Counted from the first letter of the stretch, positions 1,007-25,265 are shown. The stretch is 26,287 bases of DNA from a virus (IMGVR_UViG_2531839144_000012:1-26287), one strand, 5' to 3'. Numbers and translations are program-made. Notes: generated from the sequence alone by a model not told the origin.

Positions 1007-1450
1007 ATGTTAGATATCAGAATGTCACGACCATCTGAAGCATCAGAGATCATACAAATCTGGAAGAGTTCAGTGGATGCTACCCACGACTTTCTTACAG
1101 GTCATGACCGACAAGAAATCGAAAAAGAAGTTATCGGCTTTTTCTCAGAAACTCCTGTATGGGTTGCAACAAATCAGGATGACCAACCGCTAGGATTTAT
1201 GTTTTTGCATGAGGGGCATCTGGAGGCACTTTTTGTAGCAGGCTCTGCTCGCGGACTTGGCGTCGGAAAACGTTTGATCTCTCATGCACTGGCGCTGCAT
1301 CCAGAGCTAAGCGTTGATGTAAATGAACAAAACCAGCAGGCTGTAGGGTTTTATCAGCATATGGGTTTTCAGGTATCAGGGCGTTCCGAGCTGGATAATC
1401 AGGGAAGGCCATACCCCTTGTTGCATCTGAGAATGGCCAATAACATGTAA
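1007..1450 (+). CDS. GNAT-family N-acetyltransferase
   Basis: 147-aa ORF; acetyl-CoA-binding-type motif region LFVAGSARGLGVGKRLISHA and C-terminal GFYQHMGF typical of GNAT fold; alternative start ATG at 1022. Confidence 0.7.
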   Translation: MLDIRMSRPSEASEIIQIWKSSVDATHDFLTGHDRQEIEKEVIGFFSETPVWVATNQDDQPLGFMFLHEGHLEALFVAGSARGLGVGKRLISHALALHPELSVDVNEQNQQAVGFYQHMGFQVSGRSELDNQGRPYPLLHLRMANNM

Positions 1451-1470
1451 CCAATGTGGCAGAGAAGATA

Positions 1471-2055
1471 TCATTGATTTTTTTGGCTAAAAGCCACGAT
1501 GTAAGAACAGCTCTGCTCACTATCTGGATTGCTCATTTGGTACTCGCTTGCAAAGGTAAGGGCAAGACAGTCACCGGCACGTAAATGATGGGTCTGATTT
1601 TTGACTCGAAAATCAAGGCTGCCACTCATCATCCAAAGCGTTTGCCCGGAAAGATGCTCATTTGCGGAGGCGGGTATCGTCAGCTCACCCATTGCAGGGA
1701 TTTCAACTTTGATCAGTTCCGGGCATGCCCCCGCAGGAGACAAAGACCAACGGGTGATGCCTGATTGCTCATCCGTCCAGTGCTGTTGCTGATGAGCAAC
1801 ACGAACCAGGGAATTCTGATGTTGCTCAAGCTCTGCAAAGAGTTTAGATAGCGTTACATTCATGGCGTTGGCCAGGCGGCTAAGGATAGTTGCACTAGGG
1901 CTGGAGATGCCTCGTTCAATCTTACTAATCATGGCCTGACTGACGCCCGATCGTTGAGCAAGCTCTGTTACAGTCAAATTGCGAGCCTTCCTGTGTTTAA
2001 GCAATAAACGTGCAATATCGCTATCTACTATCTGATTTTTAAATTTTTTATCCAT
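1471..2055 (-). CDS. XRE-family HTH transcriptional regulator with C-terminal cupin-like domain
   Basis: HTH motif LTVTELAQRSGVSQAMISKIERG near N-terminus when started at MDKKFKNQ (ATG 2055..2053, preceded by GAGAGGG Shine-Dalgarno); the ORF track extension to 2238 lacks an RBS and looks non-coding. Confidence 0.7.
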   Translation of the reverse strand: MDKKFKNQIVDSDIARLLLKHRKARNLTVTELAQRSGVSQAMISKIERGISSPSATILSRLANAMNVTLSKLFAELEQHQNSLVRVAHQQQHWTDEQSGITRWSLSPAGACPELIKVEIPAMGELTIPASANEHLSGQTLWMMSGSLDFRVKNQTHHLRAGDCLALTFASEYQMSNPDSEQSCSYIVAFSQKNQ

Positions 2056-2359
2056 TTCCGCCCTCTCTTTCACCAACCTGATTATGCCATTACATAAATT
2101 GGCCTGAAATAAATGATTTTGTAAGTCTGTAAATTCACTACTCCTAAGCGCGGCACTTCGTTTATACGCACCTATGACCTTAAAATATGAGTTGGTAAGC
2201 TTAACGTCCGCTTTTGGCACATAGCAGACCAGAGACACTGGCGTAAAGCCATGGAGGATCGGTGGGAGGAGGTAAAAATCCTCTCATGCAAAAAATACGC
2301 AAAATCGATAACAGTTGGAAATCATTCAATACTCGCACTATCGGAAGTTCACCAGCCAG

Positions 2360-2393
2360 TCGTAGCACGTTCTTGCATACGACGTGGCTACGG
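2360..2393 (+). promoter_or_regulatory. Hairpin H1: 5-bp + bulge + 5-bp stem with 11-nt loop TCTTGCATACG
   Basis: CGTAGCACGT / ACGTGGCTACG pairing seen directly; homologous to hairpin at 3381-3412 with compensatory stem substitutions. Confidence 0.45.
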
Positions 2394-2487
2394 GTTTCGA
2401 GACCGACCCGATCATCAAACGAAACATAAAATTAGCTCACATTATGAGGAAAGGTATCTTTTGCGCTATGTAAATTCAAAGGGTTAG

Positions 2488-3357
<870 letters not shown>

Positions 3358-3904: not shown

Positions 3905-4972
3905 GTGACGAATGTTTTTGGGAAGAGAATATATACACTGGATGTTCTGAGAGGATTTGCCGCACTTTCCGTTGTGTTATGGCATTGGCAACATTTTTTT
4001 ATGAAAAAGAATGCTGCATCTGACATAATCATAAACCGCCAACCTTTTTATGAATTTTTTTCCGTCTTTTATCATTACGGTTTATATGCTGTCGAATTGT
4101 TTTTTATGATTTCTGGATTCATATTTTTTTATCTATACGCTGACAATATACACAGCAATAAAACCTCAGCAAAAACTTTTATAGTTAACCGTGTCAGTAG
4201 ATTATATCCACTTTATATATTTACATTTGCTGTCGTGGCAATATTACAAATTATTTTCTTTAAAAGTCATAATTATTTTTTTGTTTATCCTATGAATGAC
4301 ATTTACCATGCCATTCTGAATTTATTGATGATTCAATCATGGGGATTTGAGCGAGGTTGGTCCTTCAACGCCCCGACATGGTCCGTGTCGATTGAAGTAC
4401 TTATGTATATGATATTTTTTATATTATGCAAGTTCACATCAAAAACAACATTCATATCAATTTTAATAGTTGCATTGTCGTACTACTTTTTCAAAATTAA
4501 CAATCCCATAATGATCGGCGCATTCTCTTTCTTTATTGGTGGTCTGACCTATAAAATTACGATTGCGGCCATAAAAAATATTAGCGCAAAGTTATTTTTT
4601 ATTTTTGCTTGTGTTTTTCTATTGATCTCATGGGGAGTTATCTTTACCCTGCAAGTAGCAGATATATTCTCAATTATCTTATTCGGATTTACCTCCATAA
4701 TCTTTTTCCTTGTATCAATTAGCGCAATACGAAACGATTTTGGAAAAAAAATTGAATGGTTGGGTGATATCAGTTATTCATCTTATCTTTTACATTTTCC
4801 TTTGCAAATCATTGTTGTTTATTTAGCTGACAAGATTGGCTATGGACGCGATCTTTTTTACAGCCCCAAGGTATTCATTTTATTCATGCTTACATTAATG
4901 GCAATTAGCTATATGTCATATATATTCATTGAAAAACCATCGCAACAATTCATCCGAAATAAATTTCATTAA
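3905..4972 (+). CDS. Acyltransferase-3 family integral membrane O-acyltransferase (OafA/Oac-like; candidate O-antigen/surface polysaccharide acetylase, lysogenic conversion gene)
   Basis: 355-aa highly hydrophobic multi-TM protein; N-terminal LDVLRGFAALSVVLWH and VELFFMISGF motifs typical of acyltransferase_3; GTG start with AAGAGG RBS; strongly AT-rich relative to the phage structural genes; position between tail fibre and att as in Sf6 oac. Confidence 0.8.
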   Translation: MTNVFGKRIYTLDVLRGFAALSVVLWHWQHFFMKKNAASDIIINRQPFYEFFSVFYHYGLYAVELFFMISGFIFFYLYADNIHSNKTSAKTFIVNRVSRLYPLYIFTFAVVAILQIIFFKSHNYFFVYPMNDIYHAILNLLMIQSWGFERGWSFNAPTWSVSIEVLMYMIFFILCKFTSKTTFISILIVALSYYFFKINNPIMIGAFSFFIGGLTYKITIAAIKNISAKLFFIFACVFLLISWGVIFTLQVADIFSIILFGFTSIIFFLVSISAIRNDFGKKIEWLGDISYSSYLLHFPLQIIVVYLADKIGYGRDLFYSPKVFILFMLTLMAISYMSYIFIEKPSQQFIRNKFH

Positions 4973-9172: not shown

Positions 9173-10251
9173 CAGAACGGGTCCTCCTGTACTCTGGCTT
9201 TTTTCTTTTTCCGCGCGCCGGGGGCTTCGGGTTCAGGCAGATAAGCATCAGGTGGGCCGACACGGATTTCCGTCAGGGTGCCGTTCTGGTCCTGAGTAAA
9301 CGTGACTTCCGAGACAAGCAGTTCGGTATTGTCGAAACCACAGACCGGATCGAAGACAATCACCCGCTGGTTGGGCTGCCACAGCGTACCGTTACCCTGT
9401 CGCCAGCCCTGCACCACATAGGTGGTTTCATCCGTCCGCGCCGCCCGTTGTCGGGCTTCAAAGTCAGCACGCGCAATACAACCTGCCCCCGTGGCCTGCC
9501 CTGTCTGCCTGATATACATCGGACGGTAACGGGCAATAAATGCGTCCTCTGTGCGGGCCCGCAGCGCGGTGGTGGTGGCTTCACCGAAATCATCGTCGTT
9601 TCCGGCACGCTGCCCCGCCACCTGGTAAACAGAAAACCGCTCCCGGATACTCTTCTCCGTATCGCAGGAAAGGATGTTTTCCCCGAGTACCAGCGCAGTA
9701 TGTGCCCGCGTTGAGCCAATACCGCCAATCACCAGCCTGCCGTGCGGGTCGTCGTAAGCCAGTGCCTGCTGCTGACCGAGTATTTTGTTGATTACCTCAA
9801 TCACCGTTTCACCGTGATCAGGCTGAACATCAGGAATAACACCCGACGGCGCACCGCTGTTCACCACCTCAATGCCGAAAGGCGCAGCAAGCGCCTGCGC
9901 AATCTGCACCAGCGAGCGTCCGTTAAACTGTGTCGGTTCGGCTGCACAGTCAATCAGGTCAGCCGTCAGACTGCGTCCGGCAATACCGGTGCTGACCGAA
10001 CGGGAATCGTAACGAACGGGCGTCGCCTCCACCCAGCCGGTGATCACCAGCTCATCACCAATCAGCACTTCCACTTTTGAACCGTTTTTAATGCGCGGCT
10101 GAAGCGTGGTGATACCCTCATCTCCCGGCCACTGGCGGGTGATCTCCACACTGAAATCCCGCGCCAGCCGTTCAATACCGGCACCGATGCGCACCGATGT
10201 CCAGCCATTCCACTCCCGGCCATTTACCCGTAGCGTGACATTGTCGTTCAT
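9172..10251 (-). CDS. Mu gp44-like tail/baseplate hub protein (late control D-like)
   Basis: 359-aa ORF between DNA circulation protein and baseplate V homologues. Confidence 0.6.
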   Translation of the reverse strand: MNDNVTLRVNGREWNGWTSVRIGAGIERLARDFSVEITRQWPGDEGITTLQPRIKNGSKVEVLIGDELVITGWVEATPVRYDSRSVSTGIAGRSLTADLIDCAAEPTQFNGRSLVQIAQALAAPFGIEVVNSGAPSGVIPDVQPDHGETVIEVINKILGQQQALAYDDPHGRLVIGGIGSTRAHTALVLGENILSCDTEKSIRERFSVYQVAGQRAGNDDDFGEATTTALRARTEDAFIARYRPMYIRQTGQATGAGCIARADFEARQRAARTDETTYVVQGWRQGNGTLWQPNQRVIVFDPVCGFDNTELLVSEVTFTQDQNGTLTEIRVGPPDAYLPEPEAPGARKKKKARVQEDPF

Positions 10252-11576
10252 TGCACTGGCACCTTCAGAGGGATCACCGGCACAAAGCCGGGATGCGTAA
10301 TGGCATTACGCCGGATAATGTCCGCGTCACGCGCCGCATTATCAAACCAGGTCGCCGCCAGCACCAGCGCGGGTAAAACCTCATCCGGCGTGCGCTGAAT
10401 GATCCGTGCAGACTGTTCAAGGCGCGTGTTGATATCCGCATTCAGATCTGCTTTCACCCGGCGCAGCGCCAGAAACAGCGCATCACTGGTTGTACGGGAC
10501 AACTCCTTATCAATTGCCGTATTCAGTGTGTCGCGAATGTCAGTCAGTTCTTCCCACGTCGGCAGGTCAACCGTGCTTTTCACCGCCGGAGCATTGTTCA
10601 GTGCCGGATGCGTGACGGAAGGCCAGTCAGTGCTCTGCGCGGGTGTTGTTGCCTGCCCCACTGCGGCATTCTGCATCACCGCGGAAGTTGTTGGCGCAGG
10701 CAATCGGGTGACGGCATACGCCGCTTCGCTGATTGCGGTCGTACGAAGGGTGCTGGCAACCACATTACGCTGCTGCGTAGCCGTGGCGGTGGTTTTACTG
10801 TCCGTTTTCCAGACGCCGCGCGGTTGCAGATCGCTGCCGAGGCTGACACCGGAAAGCGTTTTGATCATGGTGACCAGGTCGCTGGCGTTACCATAAAGGC
10901 GTTTCCCGGTACGCCACATTTTCTGCACCTGCTCAACGAAATTTTTGCCTGACCATGGCGGCGGCAGAAGTACCGAGATATCCCCCTGCAACAGCCTGGC
11001 GGCATCCGATACGGCAGAATCCACCACTTTCATCGCATCAGAAACATACCCAAGCATTGTGCCGGCATTACCGACGACGTCGTTCTGCACAAAATCTGCC
11101 ACGCCATCGATACTGAAACTACTGAAACTGTCACTGATGCAGTCATCCAGTGCAGAACAGGATGACATCAGCGTCTGCGCCGTCGCCGCACCTGATGTGG
11201 GGTAAGAGAGTTCTCCCGCTTCGACAAACTTCAGGTCAAAGCGGACAATACGCCCTTCACTCTTCGATGTGCTGACCCGAACCTCTCCGTCAACACAGAC
11301 TTTCAGCTCACCGTAAGTCGGATGGACAAGCGTGCCGGGACCGGGTTTATTCAGCGCGTCAATCAGGCGATCGCGCTGGTCAAAGCAGTCATCTCCCACC
11401 ACATAAGCTGTGATGGACGGGCGGAAAGTGATTTTCCCCAGGTCTTCGGTATAGGGTTTGTCGCGGTTCGGGTATTCGTGCGTTTCCACACGACGACCGG
11501 TTCCCGTACTTTCTTCTTCAACCTTAAACGGCACACCGCGAAATGACGCGTCCTGAAGTCTGTCTTTCCACGTCAT
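10248..11576 (-). CDS. Mu-like DNA circulation protein (gp43-like)
   Basis: Start taken at MTWKDRLQDASFRGVPF (ATG 11576..11574, GGAG RBS upstream); immediately downstream of tape measure. Confidence 0.7.
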   Translation of the reverse strand: MTWKDRLQDASFRGVPFKVEEESTGTGRRVETHEYPNRDKPYTEDLGKITFRPSITAYVVGDDCFDQRDRLIDALNKPGPGTLVHPTYGELKVCVDGEVRVSTSKSEGRIVRFDLKFVEAGELSYPTSGAATAQTLMSSCSALDDCISDSFSSFSIDGVADFVQNDVVGNAGTMLGYVSDAMKVVDSAVSDAARLLQGDISVLLPPPWSGKNFVEQVQKMWRTGKRLYGNASDLVTMIKTLSGVSLGSDLQPRGVWKTDSKTTATATQQRNVVASTLRTTAISEAAYAVTRLPAPTTSAVMQNAAVGQATTPAQSTDWPSVTHPALNNAPAVKSTVDLPTWEELTDIRDTLNTAIDKELSRTTSDALFLALRRVKADLNADINTRLEQSARIIQRTPDEVLPALVLAATWFDNAARDADIIRRNAITHPGFVPVIPLKVPVQ

Positions 11577-11636
11577 ATAAACTCCGTACATAAAAAATCC
11601 CACCGGAGTGGGACTCATTAACAGATTAATTTTTCA

Positions 11637-13472
11637 TTACCTGCCAAAGCGCGTATAGCCAACATCATGGCTGACATCAAAACCGCTGGATCGCGTTTCC
11701 ATAACCCGCATACCCGGAGGCGAATTCACAAAAGAGACCTTGATCTCACCATCAACTTTTGGCGCAGAAGCTTTGTTGATCATGAAGGGATTCGGGCCTG
11801 TGGCACCGGAGGCGTTGTTTGCCTGAGCCGGATCCACCGCCGGATAAGGAGTGTATCCCCGTGGCGGTATTCCCGTCCCATAAGCATCATAAGCACCCGC
11901 GCCCCACTGCGCCGAGTTAATGGCATCGACCGTGTCACCGGAACTGTCGGTAAACCATTCAATAATCGGCTTCAGCTTGTCCCACATATCCTGAAACCAC
12001 TTAACAACCGGTCCCCAGTTATTGATCACCATCCCCAGCGGCGACCAGGCAAAAACCTTCTTCAGAAGTTCCCAGCCTGCCTCAAAATAAGGACCAATAG
12101 TTTCCCAGAGCTTCTTGAAATAAGGTCCGACAACATCCCAGTTAGTGATAATTAATCCCGCAGCCAGAGCAATCGCCGTCGCAATCATGCCAATCGGCGT
12201 CATCGACATGATCCTGCTGACAATACTGATGGCACCGCCCACGCCCATCAATCCCAGTTTCAGAATCGCAAGACCGGCAGCAAGCCCGACAACGCCGCGA
12301 ATAACCCGGGGATTTTCATCCGCAAACTTCGTGAATTTCTCCCCCAACTCCCCCAGCCACTGCGTGATGTTCTTAGCGTCACCAGAAAATGCGCCGCCAA
12401 TAGCCGCAAGGCCGTTAGTTGCGGTCCCCGTCATTGCCTCCCACAGGTTGGACAGCGTACCAAGCTGGGCCTGAACACGTTTATTCAGGCTGGCCTGTTT
12501 ATTCATCTTCTGCTGGATCTGATCGTAGCCATCCTTTCCTTTATCGATCAGCGCATTGACCACCTGAAGGGTTTCGGCATCATCACCAAATATTGCCTTA
12601 AGTACACCTGTTCGCTTAACGTCGGTCAGTTTTCGCAGCTTTGCCAGTTGCCTGAACATGTTATCAAGACCGCCAAAACTTCCTTTGCCGTCAGTAAAAT
12701 CGAGCTGTACCCCGAGTTTCTGGCGGGCCATAACTTTATTAACGTCCCTGATTTTCTTAACGCTTAATCCGGACTGGATAACTTTTCGCAGGGCATTACC
12801 TGCCGACTCCCCGTTCATCCCCATCTGATCCATCATGACGCTGATGGGGGCAAGGCTCTGTGCAGCCTGAAGACCATCCTTGTTCACCATCTTCAGAACA
12901 GAACTGGTTTTAGTGAAGAAGGACAACATGTTGGTATCGTCAACGCCCAGATAAAACGCCTTCTGGATAGTGTCGAACAGCCCCATCATGTCTTCTGACG
13001 CCGTTCCGGTAGCATCCTGCATCTTTGCAGCAAACTCAGCAGCCGCTTCCGGTGTTTTTTTCAGTTGTACCGCAAGATAAGCTGTCGCTTTACCCACACC
13101 ACCCAGAATGTTTTCTGCCGGGATCCCCTGACGCACCAGCATCTGCATCATGTTCTGGAAATCAGCCGTTGTACCAGGTAGCTGGTTACCCAGGCCAATA
13201 GCCAGTTTATTGATGTCCTGAAAGCTCTTTCCAACCTCGCCGTTCGCATCCATCATGGCAACTTTCAGCCCGGTGGCGGCGTTTTCCTGATCGGCATAAG
13301 ATTTCAGGGAAAGCGTCAGACCCGCTGCCAGTCCGCCACCAAGCGCCAGCCCACCCTGTGACGCTTCTTCCGCCTGGCGTTTAAATCCCCGGATTTTCTT
13401 TTGCATTTTCGACAGCGCGGGAGAAAGCCTGTCGACACCGGTGATCAACGCCTTAAGCTCAAATTCAGCCAT
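11637..13472 (-). CDS. Tail tape measure protein
   Basis: 611-aa ORF with Ala/Gly-rich helical repeats and C-terminal hydrophobic segment, downstream of tail chaperone. Confidence 0.85.
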   Translation of the reverse strand: MAEFELKALITGVDRLSPALSKMQKKIRGFKRQAEEASQGGLALGGGLAAGLTLSLKSYADQENAATGLKVAMMDANGEVGKSFQDINKLAIGLGNQLPGTTADFQNMMQMLVRQGIPAENILGGVGKATAYLAVQLKKTPEAAAEFAAKMQDATGTASEDMMGLFDTIQKAFYLGVDDTNMLSFFTKTSSVLKMVNKDGLQAAQSLAPISVMMDQMGMNGESAGNALRKVIQSGLSVKKIRDVNKVMARQKLGVQLDFTDGKGSFGGLDNMFRQLAKLRKLTDVKRTGVLKAIFGDDAETLQVVNALIDKGKDGYDQIQQKMNKQASLNKRVQAQLGTLSNLWEAMTGTATNGLAAIGGAFSGDAKNITQWLGELGEKFTKFADENPRVIRGVVGLAAGLAILKLGLMGVGGAISIVSRIMSMTPIGMIATAIALAAGLIITNWDVVGPYFKKLWETIGPYFEAGWELLKKVFAWSPLGMVINNWGPVVKWFQDMWDKLKPIIEWFTDSSGDTVDAINSAQWGAGAYDAYGTGIPPRGYTPYPAVDPAQANNASGATGPNPFMINKASAPKVDGEIKVSFVNSPPGMRVMETRSSGFDVSHDVGYTRFGR

Positions 13473-13647
13473 GTGTGCGTTTCTCCTGCTCTATCCTGTT
13501 TGCCTGACTGACCAGTAAGGGAATTTCACTGATCGGCATATTCAGCAATTCGAAAGGATTAATGCGCCAGTAGCTGGCGCAGTCAAAGAAGCGATCAGTG
13601 AGGTATTCAGCCGTCAGGCCTGGAGGAAAAAACCAGCCACAAGCCAC
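13465..13647 (-). CDS. -1 frame extension of tail assembly chaperone (frameshift product analogous to P2 E+E' / lambda GT)
   Basis: Open in -1 frame from slippery heptamer T TTT TTC (minus strand, plus coords 13626-13632) through to tape measure start. Confidence 0.5.
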   Translation of the reverse strand: MACGWFFPPGLTAEYLTDRFFDCASYWRINPFELLNMPISEIPLLVSQANRIEQEKRTHG

Positions 13648-13883
13648 GCCGCTGCATTCAGGTCTGCCGGAGACATCTGGTCGACAGAGCTTTGCGGCAC
13701 TTTCGCCAGCCGCACAATGTATTTCGACACCACATGCGCCAGAAGTTTGACTGACTCATCCTGATTCATCTGGTAGGGATACCCCAGCTCGCGGACATCC
13801 TTCCCGGTGGGCTCATCAAACTCCAGTACGGAGAGTGTCTCGCCATGAGCAGTAATCGGTTTCTTTAACTCAAGCTCTTTCAT
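13614..13883 (-). CDS. Tail assembly chaperone (Mu gp41 / P2 E-like), zero-frame product
   Basis: 89-aa ORF between tail tube and tape measure; ends just after a TTTTTTC slippery site. Confidence 0.6.
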   Translation of the reverse strand: MKELELKKPITAHGETLSVLEFDEPTGKDVRELGYPYQMNQDESVKLLAHVVSKYIVRLAKVPQSSVDQMSPADLNAAAWLVAGFFLQA

Positions 13884-14239
13884 TACTGGTAATCCCCTTC
13901 TTCACCGTGGAACTCAAGATCAACCGTACCTTCTTCAGCATTATGGTTCGCTTCGCCGTGCAGCCAGGCAGACGACAGTACATAGACCTGACCGTTCGCC
14001 AGCTCGGCAGTGATGGTCATCTCATCAGACGAGGTGATTTTGTTCACCGGAAAATTCTTCGGCACCTTGAAAGTCCCTTTGACATAAGGCGCACGGTGAG
14101 TTTCCTTGCGGTCCACTGAACCGTCTAGGCCGATGATGTCATCATTGACCGTCCTGTTCATGGGCACCTCAATGCCGCCGGTCAGCGATAGCTGTTGACC
14201 GTCAATTTTGAAATAACAGGTTCCCCCGATACGGGCCAT
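13883..14239 (-). CDS. Tail tube protein (Mu gp40-like)
   Basis: 118-aa ORF immediately downstream of sheath gene, stop/start overlap. Confidence 0.7.
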   Translation of the reverse strand: MARIGGTCYFKIDGQQLSLTGGIEVPMNRTVNDDIIGLDGSVDRKETHRAPYVKGTFKVPKNFPVNKITSSDEMTITAELANGQVYVLSSAWLHGEANHNAEEGTVDLEFHGEEGDYQ

Positions 14240-15735
14240 TATGCAGACTCCTCTGAATACTGAAGACGGAACTGGTTAACCACGGCAAAGACACGCAACT
14301 GGTTAACATAGTCAGGCGGGAACAGCGTGTTCAGGCGGTTCGGATCGCTGGCATCACGCTCCACAACCAGGTACTGCTTAAACAGTTCGTAGTTTTCCAC
14401 GATCCCCGCACGCTCAAGCTGACGGTAGGTTGCCAGCAGTTCCCCTTTGATCACCGCCGGGGTGACAATCGCCTGACCGGGACCAAAGCGGGTACCGTCA
14501 CTGGCAAGCTTGTGACGCCCGTACTTACTGGTAATGACGGATTTCAGTTTGCGCAGTACATACGCGCTGGTATGCAGAGTCTCACTGTCTAGGTAGCTGT
14601 TATCCGCAACCCCGTAAGCGTTTTTCCTGTACGTGGTGACATCACGCTGAATGCGCAGTACCCCGCTTTCGACATACGCCGTTGCCACGCCATGAGACAG
14701 CAGGGTCTGTTGTTCGGTCATCGTGAACCGTTTCCCCTTCGGCGCAGGCAGCATACCCACCAGCTCACCGGTCTGCGTGGGACGTGCCGGATCGTTGCGA
14801 ATAAACACCGCTGCGCGGGCGGTACGGCTTGCCGCCAGTTCGTCGGCAGGCGTCTGGGTCTCTTTTTCGTACCCCGCCAGGGTAATGTGCTGCTGGTTAA
14901 ACTGGTCACCTGCGGTCACCAGTTCTGACAGCGTGCCGATCTTTGCCGTATACACATGACCATACAGCTGACGCGCATAGCTCCAGCGACCGCTGGTATC
15001 GTTCATCTCGGTCACCAGCGTGTTAACGGAGGCCGTGTCGTTGAACGGCAGACCGATATAATCAAACGGCTCATCCGCCATTGCAGCCACCGCGCCGGTG
15101 AGAACCGGAGCACCCGTTCCGGCGGTACCCGTCGCCACGGCAATCTGTACGCCCGCTGGCAGCACTTCGCCCCCACCGAAGCCGTAGTAATTGAGGCTGA
15201 CAGGAATTTCATTCCCGCAAAGCCCCTTATGACGCGCGGTCAGTGTGACCACGCCTGCCGAAGATGAAGCCGTAAACGGCAGGGCCGGAACGGCATTGAT
15301 GGCATCTTTGATACTGCTGGCAATCGTCGTGACGTTATCGCCGTTGGTCACCGGAGCCTGCACGCGGGTACGTCCCACATAGACATTCACCGTGCCGGTT
15401 TCGGTTGCCGCCCCGGTCACCGTCAGCGTAACCGTTGCCGCCGCGCCTGTGGATTCAGGAACGGCAATCACATACAGCTCGCCAAACGGGTCGGTCTGGC
15501 GATAAGCCTCGACCATACGCGCCAGCTGACTTCCCGCACCACAAATCTGGCGTGCATAGTCTGCCGACGACATCAGTACCAGACTGTTGGCAACAATCTC
15601 TGCACCGTTATTGGCGTGACCAATCAGCAGCGATGCTCCGCTGTCCTGTGCAGTATTCGCCGCCTGGTTATCCATTTCCGCATAAAACAACGGAACCAGC
15701 GTATTCGACGGAATGGTGTTAAAGCTTATCGTCAT
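14239..15735 (-). CDS. Contractile tail sheath protein (Mu gp39-like)
   Basis: 498-aa ORF, size and position typical of sheath; followed by tube and chaperone genes. Confidence 0.85.
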   Translation of the reverse strand: MTISFNTIPSNTLVPLFYAEMDNQAANTAQDSGASLLIGHANNGAEIVANSLVLMSSADYARQICGAGSQLARMVEAYRQTDPFGELYVIAVPESTGAAATVTLTVTGAATETGTVNVYVGRTRVQAPVTNGDNVTTIASSIKDAINAVPALPFTASSSAGVVTLTARHKGLCGNEIPVSLNYYGFGGGEVLPAGVQIAVATGTAGTGAPVLTGAVAAMADEPFDYIGLPFNDTASVNTLVTEMNDTSGRWSYARQLYGHVYTAKIGTLSELVTAGDQFNQQHITLAGYEKETQTPADELAASRTARAAVFIRNDPARPTQTGELVGMLPAPKGKRFTMTEQQTLLSHGVATAYVESGVLRIQRDVTTYRKNAYGVADNSYLDSETLHTSAYVLRKLKSVITSKYGRHKLASDGTRFGPGQAIVTPAVIKGELLATYRQLERAGIVENYELFKQYLVVERDASDPNRLNTLFPPDYVNQLRVFAVVNQFRLQYSEESA

Positions 15736-24077: not shown

Positions 24078-24626
24078 ATGTTTGATTTTACTCATTTTGA
24101 AGAGTTGACTTTAGCATCACATCAACCCGATAGAATAATGACTATAGTTCGGTCCCAAGATGACATTGGTATCTATCTCCGCACTCACCTTTTGATTGAA
24201 CAAATCTTGGAAGCTTGGATTATCTGTGCCTCTGGTAACAGGGATTTCTTCAGCGGTTTTGGCGAAAATATCAACATGGATTTTGCCATTAAAGCTCAGC
24301 TTGCGATGAACTATGGTATGAGCTCAGAGCTAAACAAATTTATTCGAAGGTTCAACAACTTCAGAAACAAACGTTCACATCAAATTAACAACTCTGACAT
24401 CACTAACAGTGAGATTGACTCCTTAACAAGTCTAATGGAGCACGGTTACCCTGATAGCTTGACCCCCATTAGAGATTTTAAGCTTGGGGTTTACGGAGCA
24501 GAAACTAGGGTTGTAAGTTTCACGGGATCCTCTACAAGCTTACGCGATAAGCTCATTATGTTATTCGCTATGTTTTCCATGAGGGTACATTACGAAGCAA
24601 AATGCTTAAGCACGCCACAGAGCTAG
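24078..24626 (+). CDS. Hypothetical protein with Rx4H (HEPN-like) motif; first gene of AT-rich two-gene insert
   Basis: 182-aa ORF with AAGGA RBS; motif FRNKRSHQ; opposite strand to flanking phage late genes; AT-rich. Confidence 0.55.
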   Translation: MFDFTHFEELTLASHQPDRIMTIVRSQDDIGIYLRTHLLIEQILEAWIICASGNRDFFSGFGENINMDFAIKAQLAMNYGMSSELNKFIRRFNNFRNKRSHQINNSDITNSEIDSLTSLMEHGYPDSLTPIRDFKLGVYGAETRVVSFTGSSTSLRDKLIMLFAMFSMRVHYEAKCLSTPQS

Positions 24627-24704
24627 GCTCTACTTTGATGCTCTAATAACATTCGATTATTTGCATTTCCTGTTGCATTAGCGACCTGCCATTGAGGAGT
24701 AAAA

Positions 24705-25265
24705 ATGATCCATACGGTACATTTTTTGACAGATGTTACAGTTGCCTCTGTAACTAATCTGATGGATGTCTGCTTAAAAGCAGTTTCAAATACTAATCAA
24801 CCAGCAACAGAAATTAAGCTCTATATTTCCAGCAAAGGTGGAGATACAGTTTCAGGCTTTACTGCTTACAATTTTTTAAAGTCACTTGGTGTAAAGGTTA
24901 CTACGCATAACCTCAGTAATGTTGAATCAATCGCAAACGTGATCTATATGGCTGGAGAAGTGCGAACTGCCAACCCACTTTCTCGCTTCCTTCTTCACCC
25001 ACTGCATTGGGGGTTCGCCGCACCCAGCGCAGATCACCTACGATTGAGAGAATGGGCTTCATGCCTCGATGACGATCTAAATCGATTTATTCAAATCATG
25101 GATATTGAAACAAAAAAGAAAAATCCAAGTGAGATTGCTGATTGGAAGGATTTGATCACTTCGGCAACCATCCTTCATCCCGGAAGGGCCTCCGAGTTGG
25201 GAATTGTTCATCAAGTCGAGGCTGCAACCATACCCACGGAATCGATCCGCTGGTGGGTACTTTAA
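24705..25265 (+). CDS. ClpP-family (S14-like) serine protease homologue, short form
   Basis: 186 aa; aligns by eye to E. coli ClpP core: IKLYISSKGG vs IYLYINSPGG, Ser in NVESI vs QAASM, His in LLHP vs MIHQP, Asp in KDL vs RDRF; GAGGAG RBS. Confidence 0.65.
   Translation: MIHTVHFLTDVTVASVTNLMDVCLKAVSNTNQPATEIKLYISSKGGDTVSGFTAYNFLKSLGVKVTTHNLSNVESIANVIYMAGEVRTANPLSRFLLHPLHWGFAAPSADHLRLREWASCLDDDLNRFIQIMDIETKKKNPSEIADWKDLITSATILHPGRASELGIVHQVEAATIPTESIRWWVL

What the first reader, a model, noticed from the sequence alone, without database searches (positions are those of the whole stretch)
13465..13883. Programmed -1 ribosomal frameshift site in the tail assembly chaperone (T TTT TTC)
The 89-aa chaperone ORF ends ...AGFFLQA* and contains GGT TTT TTC; shifting -1 at the heptamer T-TTT-TTC enters a frame that stays open for a further 55 codons up to the tape measure start. 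This is the conserved G/GT (lambda) or E/E+E' (P2) arrangement, and the heptamer is visible directly in the sequence.
Basis: partly seen in the sequence, partly recalled or inferred. Interest (0 to 1): 0.4.

Follow-up and report, generated by a model that had tools for sequence, protein, structure and literature searches.

The report
Tail chaperone programmed -1 frameshift site
An SfV-like prophage of E. coli carries the textbook "slippery" site that lets some ribosomes slip back one base and make a longer second version of a tail-assembly helper protein. The site is real and conserved but ordinary, and public records simply fail to annotate it.

Summary
An 89-aa tail assembly chaperone (13883..13614, Pfam PF10109) carries an in-phase T_TTT_TTC heptamer (13632..13626) three codons before its stop. 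The -1 frame stays open for 53 more codons. It ends in a TGA that overlaps the tape-measure ATG (ATGGCTGA).

- 35 of 38 loci from other species, and 6 related phages, keep a T6C or T7 heptamer at the same codon, with a -1 frame running to the tape-measure start.
- Substitutions in the extension fall mainly on the third codon position of the -1 frame.
- The -1 peptide is conserved down to about 35% identity.
- GGT-TTT-TTC are the only 3 of 32 conserved-residue codons with no synonymous variation.
- Most relatives have no start codon for the -1 ORF.

The geometry matches the experimentally characterised P2 E/E+E' frameshift: same Pfam family, same site, same 8-nt overlap with the tape-measure gene. 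I found no stimulatory RNA structure.

The window is 99% identical to phage SfV. None of the inspected public records joins the two frames. This is a missed annotation of a well-known mechanism, so interest is low. Transcriptional slippage at the T run would give the same protein and cannot be excluded here.

The parts
13614..13883 (-). Short (zero-frame) tail assembly chaperone, 89 aa, gpE-like. The ATG overlaps the tube gene stop (TAATG). The stop is TGA at 13616..13614.
   Evidence: ORF list and sequence. Pfam PF10109 Phage_TAC_7, E=1e-16, residues 4-86 to profile 2-78/79. phrog_166 'tail protein', E=5e-24. Annotated 'phage tail assembly protein' in RefSeq E. coli and as SfV orf13.
13626..13632 (-). 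Slippery heptamer T_TTT_TTC in X_XXY_YYZ phase (zero-frame codons GGT TTT TTC, residues G84 F85 F86), three codons before the zero-frame stop.
   Evidence: Sequence. Phase check. Conserved as T6C or T7 at the same codon in 35 of 38 species loci and 6 phages. GGT/TTT/TTC are the only 3 of 32 invariant-residue codons with no synonymous variation among 13 relatives. U_UUU_UUC is a proven -1 shifter in E. coli.
13465..13626 (-). -1 frame extension (E'-like): 53 codons PPGLTAEYLTDRFFDCASYWRINPFELLNMPISEIPLLVSQANRIEQEKRTHG plus TGA. The predicted fusion CDS is complement(join(13626..13883, 13465..13626)), with base 13626 read twice, giving 139 aa.
   Evidence: Translation. phrog_32181, E=4e-40. Third-position bias of substitutions in the -1 frame, for example 9/7/28 against phage EPP-1. 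BLASTP against the phiP27 extension gives 35% identity, E=3e-11. No conserved start codon or SD. Fills the otherwise unannotated 141-nt gap.
11637..13472 (-). Tape measure protein gene, the inferred binding partner of the chaperone. Its ATG overlaps the extension stop (ATGGCTGA). Its AGGAG ribosome-binding site lies inside the last codons of the extension.
   Evidence: PF10145 PhageMin_Tail, E=1e-26. Junction sequence. Same 8-nt overlap as P2 E+E'/T.
13883..14239 (-). Tail tube protein gene immediately upstream. It is the inferred target of the extension domain, by analogy with lambda gpGT-gpV.
   Evidence: PF10618 Tail_tube, E=3e-33. The role is inferred from the lambda model as reviewed in PMC5009743.
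13563..13581 (-). Stable hairpin UGCGCCAG-CUA-CUGGCGCA starting 45 nt 3' of the heptamer. It is listed for completeness and is probably not a frameshift stimulator.
   Evidence: Predicted in the folds. Kept in 10 of 13 relatives but with no compensatory changes, and 3 relatives break it. It lies too far from the heptamer for a canonical stimulator, which sits 5-9 nt away (general knowledge).

Best explanation
The 89-aa ORF is the tail assembly chaperone of an SfV-like myovirus prophage. Most ribosomes translate it to the TGA at 13616..13614. A minority slip back one base while tRNA-Phe occupies UUU (P site) and UUC (A site) of U_UUU_UUC. Both tRNAs re-pair with UUU UUU, and decoding continues with CCU in the -1 frame for 53 codons. 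The result is a 139-aa fusion that ends where the tape-measure gene begins.

By analogy with lambda gpG/gpGT and P2 gpE/gpE+E', the shared N-terminal domain coats the tape-measure protein. The rarer frameshift-encoded C-terminal domain recruits the tube protein, so that tail polymerisation starts on the tape measure. The fixed low ratio of long to short form is set by slip efficiency.

Shown here: the site, its phase, its conservation, and the coding nature of the -1 frame. Inferred: that the slip is ribosomal, its efficiency, and the roles of the two proteins.
For: - Anatomy.
- Family and position: PF10109 between tube (PF10618) and tape measure (PF10145). P2 gpE is in the same Pfam family, with the site at the same profile position. 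The P2 record annotates a joined E+E' CDS with a '-1 translational frameshift' at T_TTT_TTG and the same 8-nt overlap with gene T.
- Conservation: 35 of 38 species loci plus 6 phages keep an in-phase T6C or T7 heptamer and a -1 ORF of 50-59 codons reaching the tape-measure start. The 3 exceptions are frame-disrupted copies in endosymbiont genomes.
- The -1 frame is coding. Substitutions are 9/7/28, 10/8/29 and 6/3/25 by codon position. Amino-acid identity in the -1 frame is 0.54-0.83, against 0.27-0.53 with stops in the other two frames. Motif columns are invariant across 30-40% identity relatives. BLASTP between extensions gives E=3e-11.
- Nucleotide-level selection: only GGT, TTT and TTC lack synonymous variation among 32 invariant-residue codons.
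- No own start: 18 of 26 relatives have no ATG/GTG/TTG in the -1 frame before the conserved part, and none has an SD.
- U_UU.U_UU.C is in the efficient class of E. coli -1 motifs.
- The lambda and P2 mechanism and product ratio are reviewed in PMC5009743 and PMC3091744.
Against: - There is no direct evidence for the 139-aa product in this phage.
- The bare UUUUUUC motif gave only 0.12% frameshifting in an E. coli reporter without a stimulator. This is far below the roughly 3% of lambda or the higher P2 value. I found no stimulator: no SD-like element upstream, no structure within 50 nt (z=+0.16 here, median +0.03 over 29 relatives), and no Rfam match.
- The extension does not hit the P2 E' Pfam model PF06528.
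- Five IMG/VR contigs carry GGG instead of GGT and so lack the full heptamer, yet keep the extension ORF.
- Transcriptional slippage would produce the same protein.
Confidence: 0.85

Rival explanations
1. Transcriptional slippage. RNA polymerase occasionally adds one U at the U6 run, and standard translation of the U7 mRNA gives exactly the same 139-aa protein (G-F-F-P-P...).
For: The shift site is a homopolymer, T6 here and T7 in many relatives. The product would be indistinguishable in sequence (inference). Sharma et al. attribute the depletion of U7 and A7 in E. coli genes partly to transcriptional slippage. The bare heptamer is a weak ribosomal shifter at 0.12%.
Against: - Productive bacterial slippage is described for runs of about 9 A or T (PMC5009743). 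Across 40+ relatives the run never exceeds 7, and it always starts at codon position 3, which is what tandem tRNA slippage needs.
- P2, the experimentally studied homologue, is annotated and reviewed as translational frameshifting at T6G.
Confidence: 0.08
2. The -1 ORF is an independent small gene translated from its own start, the GTG at 13647, as annotated in phage vB_EcoM-689R6.
For: A GTG opens a 60-codon ORF 13647..13465. One GenBank record and 11 protein clusters call it a separate hypothetical protein.
Against: - No SD-like sequence precedes the GTG.
- 18 of 26 relatives have no ATG/GTG/TTG anywhere in that frame before the conserved part of the peptide. The few that have one use varying codons and none has an SD.
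- Gene callers find it in only 11 clusters, against more than 150 for the chaperone.
Confidence: 0.03
3. There is no recoding. The open -1 frame and the heptamer are coincidental, or the locus is a frameshift-mutated or mis-sequenced single gene.
For: Within the window alone the statistics are modest. 7% of codon positions have 53 or more open -1 codons, and there are 9 in-phase heptamers in 17.5 kb.
Against: - The same two-frame layout occurs in 1083 of 5426 complete E. coli genomes, in 119 or more IMG/VR contigs, in 35 other species loci and in 6 phages.
- The -1 frame shows a coding substitution pattern and protein conservation.
- The heptamer shows synonymous-site conservation.
- The only database proteins that fuse the two parts in one frame are singleton, visibly error-laden assemblies.
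Confidence: 0.02

Closest known systems
Phage P2 gpE / gpE+E' (FETUD operon), programmed -1 frameshift at T_TTT_TTG
   Same: - Same Pfam family for the short protein: PF10109, P2 E=1.5e-12, here 1e-16.
- The site lies in the same ...(A/V)GF(F/L) motif at the end of the domain.
- Same U6N heptamer class.
- Similar sizes: 91/142 aa against 89/139 aa.
- The extension runs to the tape-measure gene and overlaps its start by 8 nt in both.
- Neither has a downstream structure.
- The profile alignment is collinear over 118 columns.
   Different: - The last base of the heptamer is C, not G.
- The extension does not match the P2 E' Pfam model PF06528. The hhalign support is weak (E=0.0027, probability 11%).
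- The surrounding tail module (sheath, tube, DNA-circularisation protein, baseplate) is Mu/SfV-like rather than P2-like.
Phage lambda gpG / gpGT, -1 frameshift at G_GGA_AAG
   Same: - Same genomic position, between the major tail (tube) gene and the tape-measure gene.
- Same logic: a short abundant form and a rare C-terminally extended form from one start.
- No RNA stimulator is needed.
- It is the source of the mechanistic model, in which the G domain binds the tape measure and the T domain binds the tube subunit, at a ratio of about 30:1.
   Different: - No detectable sequence similarity: only PF10109 was hit.
- A different heptamer and different tRNAs (Gly/Lys against Phe/Phe).
- A siphovirus tail rather than a contractile tail.
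Phage Mu gp41, tail assembly chaperone with a reported -2 frameshift
   Same: - The same Mu-like tail module order: sheath, tube, chaperone, gap of about 145 nt, tape measure, DNA-circularisation protein.
- gp41 has a weak PF10109 match.
- An open alternative frame spans the gap.
   Different: - Mu is reported to shift -2, not -1. In Mu the extension lies in the +1/-2 frame and there is no T-run heptamer.
- Mu gp41 is 144 aa and belongs to PF23746, which the protein here does not hit.

Membership tests
P2 gpE/E+E'-type tail assembly chaperone with programmed -1 frameshift (Pfam PF10109 Phage_TAC_7) | The short protein belongs to the gpE/gp41/gp14 chaperone family. | tested here: met
   PF10109, E=1e-16, 61 bits against a cut-off of 25, covering profile 2-78 of 79. 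P2 gpE hits the same model over the same positions.
P2 gpE/E+E'-type tail assembly chaperone with programmed -1 frameshift (Pfam PF10109 Phage_TAC_7) | The gene lies between the tail tube gene and the tape-measure gene. | tested here: met
   Tube (PF10618) at 14239..13883, chaperone at 13883..13614, tape measure (PF10145) at 13472..11637.
P2 gpE/E+E'-type tail assembly chaperone with programmed -1 frameshift (Pfam PF10109 Phage_TAC_7) | [quoted passage not shown] | tested here: met
   T_TTT_TTC at 13632..13626, three codons before the stop. T6C or T7 at the same codon in 35 of 38 loci and 6 phages. Synonymous sites are frozen.
P2 gpE/E+E'-type tail assembly chaperone with programmed -1 frameshift (Pfam PF10109 Phage_TAC_7) | The -1 frame is open from the heptamer to the tape-measure start and evolves as coding sequence. 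| tested here: met
   53 codons, with the stop overlapping the tape-measure ATG. Third-position substitution bias. Conserved peptide, E=3e-11 at 35% identity.
P2 gpE/E+E'-type tail assembly chaperone with programmed -1 frameshift (Pfam PF10109 Phage_TAC_7) | The extension is homologous to P2 E' (Pfam PF06528 Phage_P2_GpE). | tested here: inconclusive
   No PF06528 hit at E<=1, while P2 E' scores 2e-22. The profile-sequence alignment of the whole fusion is collinear through the extension but weak (E=0.0027, probability 11%).
P2 gpE/E+E'-type tail assembly chaperone with programmed -1 frameshift (Pfam PF10109 Phage_TAC_7) | Two products from one start codon are made in vivo, and both are required for tail assembly. 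| not testable with these tools
   This needs protein detection and genetics. It is known for P2 and lambda only from the literature.
Lambda gpG/gpGT | Sequence membership in the gpG/gpT families and a G_GGA_AAG heptamer. | tested here: not met
   Pfam and NCBIfam scans of the short form, the fusion and the extension give only PF10109. The heptamer is T_TTT_TTC. The system works like G/GT but is not a sequence member.
Mu gp41 (PF23746) with -2 frameshift | A Gp41_Mu domain, with the extension in the -2/+1 frame. | tested here: not met
   No PF23746 hit here, whereas Mu gp41 scores 9e-35. Here the +1 frame closes after a further 2 codons (stop 7 nt past the zero-frame stop), while the -1 frame is open.

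The most novel reading that the evidence does not exclude
The native mRNA context may contain an unrecognised, non-canonical stimulator of -1 frameshifting. The bare UUUUUUC motif shifts only about 0.1% in E. coli reporters, whereas tail chaperones need a few percent. No SD-like element or nearby structure is present. Candidates are the strong, sequence-conserved hairpin 45 nt downstream (13581..13563), acting for instance by pausing a leading ribosome so that a queued ribosome sits near the heptamer, or the conserved hydrophobic nascent peptide ...WLVAGFF.
Probability: 0.12. Interest if true: 0.45.

Novelty: new member of a known kind. Interest (0 to 1): 0.15.

Why it matters
The main value is for annotation. 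About one in five complete E. coli genomes (1083 of 5426) carries this locus. Every record inspected, including RefSeq SfV, SfI, SfII, SfIV, phiP27, ST64B and PGAP-annotated chromosomes, leaves a 85-142-nt 'intergenic' gap where an essential 139-aa tail protein is probably encoded. The 35 diverse loci also provide a clean set of U6N sites that lack recognisable stimulators. That set could help calibrate frameshift predictors and test how such sites reach useful efficiencies. It does not change the current understanding of phage tail assembly.

Tried and rejected
- **Downstream stimulatory structure.** Folding of 36-121-nt windows gave nothing significant next to the heptamer. Over 29 relatives the median z-score was +0.03, and only two GC-rich distant relatives fell below -2. 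RNAalifold found only the distant hairpin, with no covariation.
- **Rfam.** No frameshift element was found.
- **Upstream SD-like stimulator.** None was found.
- **Natural in-frame fusions as proof of the fused product.** The three full-length database hits are singleton assemblies full of indel errors and were rejected.
- **Structure.** The AlphaFold2 model of the fusion has mean pLDDT 55 and pTM 0.33. That is too poor for fold search, so none was run. It shows only a helical extension after a low-confidence linker at the slip site.
- **Solved structures by sequence.** No relatives were found.
- **NCBIfam.** No hits, for this protein or for P2 E+E'.
- **Literature.** Xu et al. 2004, Christie et al. 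2002 and the SfV genome paper are not held. Full-text searches found no paper describing this site in SfV-like phages. I therefore cannot say whether SfV is in Xu et al.'s list of 28 phages.
- **ORF length alone.** It was rejected as evidence, because 7% of positions do as well.

Full report
**What is in the sequence.** All relevant genes are on the minus strand. The order is:
- tail sheath, 15735..14239 (PF04984);
- tail tube, 14239..13883 (PF10618);
- an 89-aa ORF, 13883..13614 (PF10109 Phage_TAC_7, E=1e-16);
- a 141-nt stretch with no annotated gene;
- tape measure, 13472..11637 (PF10145);
- a Mu-N-like DNA-circularisation protein, 11618..10248 (PF07157).

The 89-aa ORF ends GCT GGT TTT TTC CTC CAG GCC TGA (...AGFFLQA*). 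T_TTT_TTC therefore occupies 13632..13626 in the X_XXY_YYZ phase. After a -1 slip the next codon is CCT. The frame reads PPGLTAEYLTDRFFDCASYWRINPFELLNMPISEIPLLVSQANRIEQEKRTHG, which is 53 codons. It stops at TGA 13467..13465 inside ATGGCTGA, where ATG is the tape-measure start. Its '55 codons' counts the two re-read Phe codons.

**Origin.** The 701 nt around the site are 99.0% identical to Shigella phage SfV and 100% identical to a prophage of E. coli T16R. 1083 of 5426 complete E. coli genomes carry the locus. No inspected record joins the two frames: RefSeq E. coli, SfV, EPP-1, AH07, phiP27, ST64B, SfIV and YeP1. One record calls the -1 ORF a separate hypothetical protein starting at a GTG. 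The -1 peptide is PHROG 32181, 'unknown function'. It appears in only 11 protein clusters, against more than 150 for the chaperone.

**Is it more than chance?** Inside the window the case is only moderate. Nine in-phase heptamers occur in 17.5 kb of CDS, and 7% of codon positions have 53 or more open -1 codons. Only this heptamer gives a product longer than the zero-frame protein. The comparative evidence is decisive.
1. Six related phages at 30-77% protein identity all have an in-phase T6C or T7 heptamer at the same ..FF.. codons and a -1 frame that runs to the tape-measure start.
2. A scan of one genome per species returned 38 loci, and 35 keep the arrangement. They include Derxia, a Methylococcales MAG and other distant hosts. 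The three exceptions are frame-disrupted copies in insect endosymbionts.
3. Substitutions in the extension fall on the third position of the -1 frame: 9/7/28 against EPP-1, and 10/8/29 and 6/3/25 within the phiP27 group. The other two frames have stops and much lower identity.
4. The -1 peptides of the two subgroups align at 35% identity, E=3e-11, although their DNA no longer aligns. The columns A103, W106, N109, P110, A128, R130 and I131 are invariant.
5. Among 13 relatives of the SfV subgroup, 32 codons in the last 80 of the chaperone encode an invariant residue. 29 of them vary synonymously. The only three that do not are GGT, TTT and TTC.
6. 18 of 26 relatives have no ATG/GTG/TTG in the -1 frame upstream of the conserved peptide, and none has an SD. 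The peptide can therefore only be reached from the chaperone frame.

**Mechanism.** The best-supported reading is tandem slippage of tRNA-Phe from UUU-UUC to UUU-UUU. U_UU.U_UU.C belongs to the efficient H_HH.U_UU.Y class of E. coli -1 motifs. In reporters it gave 0.12% without a stimulator, 0.89% with the IS911 stimulator and 7.6% with the IS3 pseudoknot.

The functional model is taken from lambda and P2 as reviewed in PMC5009743. The short form and the shared part of the long form bind the tape-measure protein. The frameshift-encoded domain binds the tube subunit. The ratio matters: about 30:1 in lambda, with 2-3-fold higher frameshifting in P2. These roles are inferred here, not shown.

The last codons of the extension also carry the AGGAG ribosome-binding site of the tape-measure gene. 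This probably contributes to the conservation of its C-terminus.

**Stimulators.** I found none.
- The 36 nt after the heptamer fold no better than shuffles (z=+0.39).
- The 45-nt segment gives z=+0.16 here and a median of +0.03 over 29 relatives including P2.
- No SD-like sequence lies upstream.
- Rfam has no match.
- A strong hairpin (UGCGCCAG-CUA-CUGGCGCA, 13581..13563) starts 45 nt downstream and is kept in 10 of 13 close relatives. Its stem never covaries, three relatives break it, and the distant subgroup lacks it. I treat it as a by-product of the conserved C-A-S-Y-W-R codons.

The absence of structure matches what is reported for P2. It leaves open how a few-percent efficiency is reached.

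**Comparison with known systems.** P2 gpE is in the same Pfam family, matched over the same profile positions. The P2 record annotates a joined E+E' CDS with a -1 frameshift at T_TTT_TTG in ...VGFL, 91/142 aa, overlapping gene T by 8 nt. Here the values are ...AGFF, 89/139 aa and an 8-nt overlap. A profile alignment of the fusion with P2 E+E' is collinear over 118 columns but weak (E=0.0027, probability 11%). The extension does not hit the P2 E' model PF06528.

Lambda G/GT is a functional analogue without detectable sequence similarity. Mu has the most similar tail module but is reported to shift -2. Its extension lies in the +1/-2 frame with no T run, and gp41 belongs to PF23746. The SfV-type tail therefore combines a Mu-like module with a P2-like chaperone frameshift.

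**Rivals.**
- Transcriptional slippage at the T run would give an identical protein and cannot be excluded computationally. Against it, the run is only 6-7 nt in all relatives and always in the tRNA-slippage phase, while productive bacterial slippage is described for runs of about 9.
- Independent initiation is contradicted by the lack of conserved starts.
- Chance or sequencing error is contradicted by the population and cross-species data.

**Dead ends.**
- Fused proteins in the big protein database are indel-ridden singletons.
- The AlphaFold2 model is unreliable (pLDDT 55).
- There are no PDB or NCBIfam relatives.
- The key primary papers are not held.

**Verdict.** This is an unannotated instance of the well-known tail-assembly-chaperone frameshift (Xu et al. 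2004, as cited). It is useful for annotation but not surprising. Interest is 0.15.

Noticed in passing
window 13632 (first T of the heptamer); loci L055, L083, L115, L121, L130-L134: A synonymous GGT->GGG change removes the first base of the heptamer, giving G_TTT_TTC or G_TTT_TTT and leaving only a U_UUY tetramer. It occurs in 5 IMG/VR contigs on at least two haplotype backgrounds, against 119 or more contigs with the canonical site. The extension ORF is intact in the 4 variant copies translated. These could be tolerated low-efficiency variants or decaying prophages.
   Followed up: partly
window 13563-13581 (-): An 8-bp GC-rich hairpin lies 45 nt 3' of the slip site. Its sequence is conserved in 10 of 13 close relatives, with variation in the loop only. 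It shows no covariation and is broken in 3 relatives. It is too far away to be a canonical stimulator.
   Followed up: yes
window 3905-4972 (+): A 355-aa Acyl_transf_3 (PF01757) gene sits in a 31% GC island next to the tail-fibre and fibre-assembly genes. It looks like an O-antigen acetyltransferase-type moron, as expected for a serotype-converting SfV-like prophage.
   Followed up: no
window 1007-3357 and 24078-25265: Low-GC accessory ORFs flank the structural operon: a GNAT acetyltransferase (1007..1450 +), an HTH_3 repressor-like protein (1471..2238 -), a GIY-YIG LEM-3-like protein (2533..3357 +) and a ClpP-like ORF (24705..25265 +).
   Followed up: no
L042, L044, L046 (Candidatus Pantoea bathycoeliae; Arsenophonus endosymbiont): Copies of the chaperone locus in insect endosymbiont genomes carry extra indels and stops in both frames. 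They appear to be decaying prophages and are the only loci that break the conserved arrangement.
   Followed up: partly
window 13465-13490 (-): The last codons of the -1 extension (..EQEKRTHG) contain the AGGAG ribosome-binding site of the tape-measure gene, and the extension stop overlaps its ATG (ATGGCTGA). Ribosomes that frameshift therefore terminate on the tape-measure start, which could allow translational coupling. P2 E+E'/T has the same 8-nt overlap.
   Followed up: partly
L023, L028, L041 (distant GC-rich relatives): Unlike the enterobacterial copies, these have good hairpins 3-8 nt after the heptamer, for example GGGCUCG-GCGG-CGAGCCC. Two of them, L023 and L028, have z-scores below -2. 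A stimulatory structure may exist in some lineages of the family.
   Followed up: no
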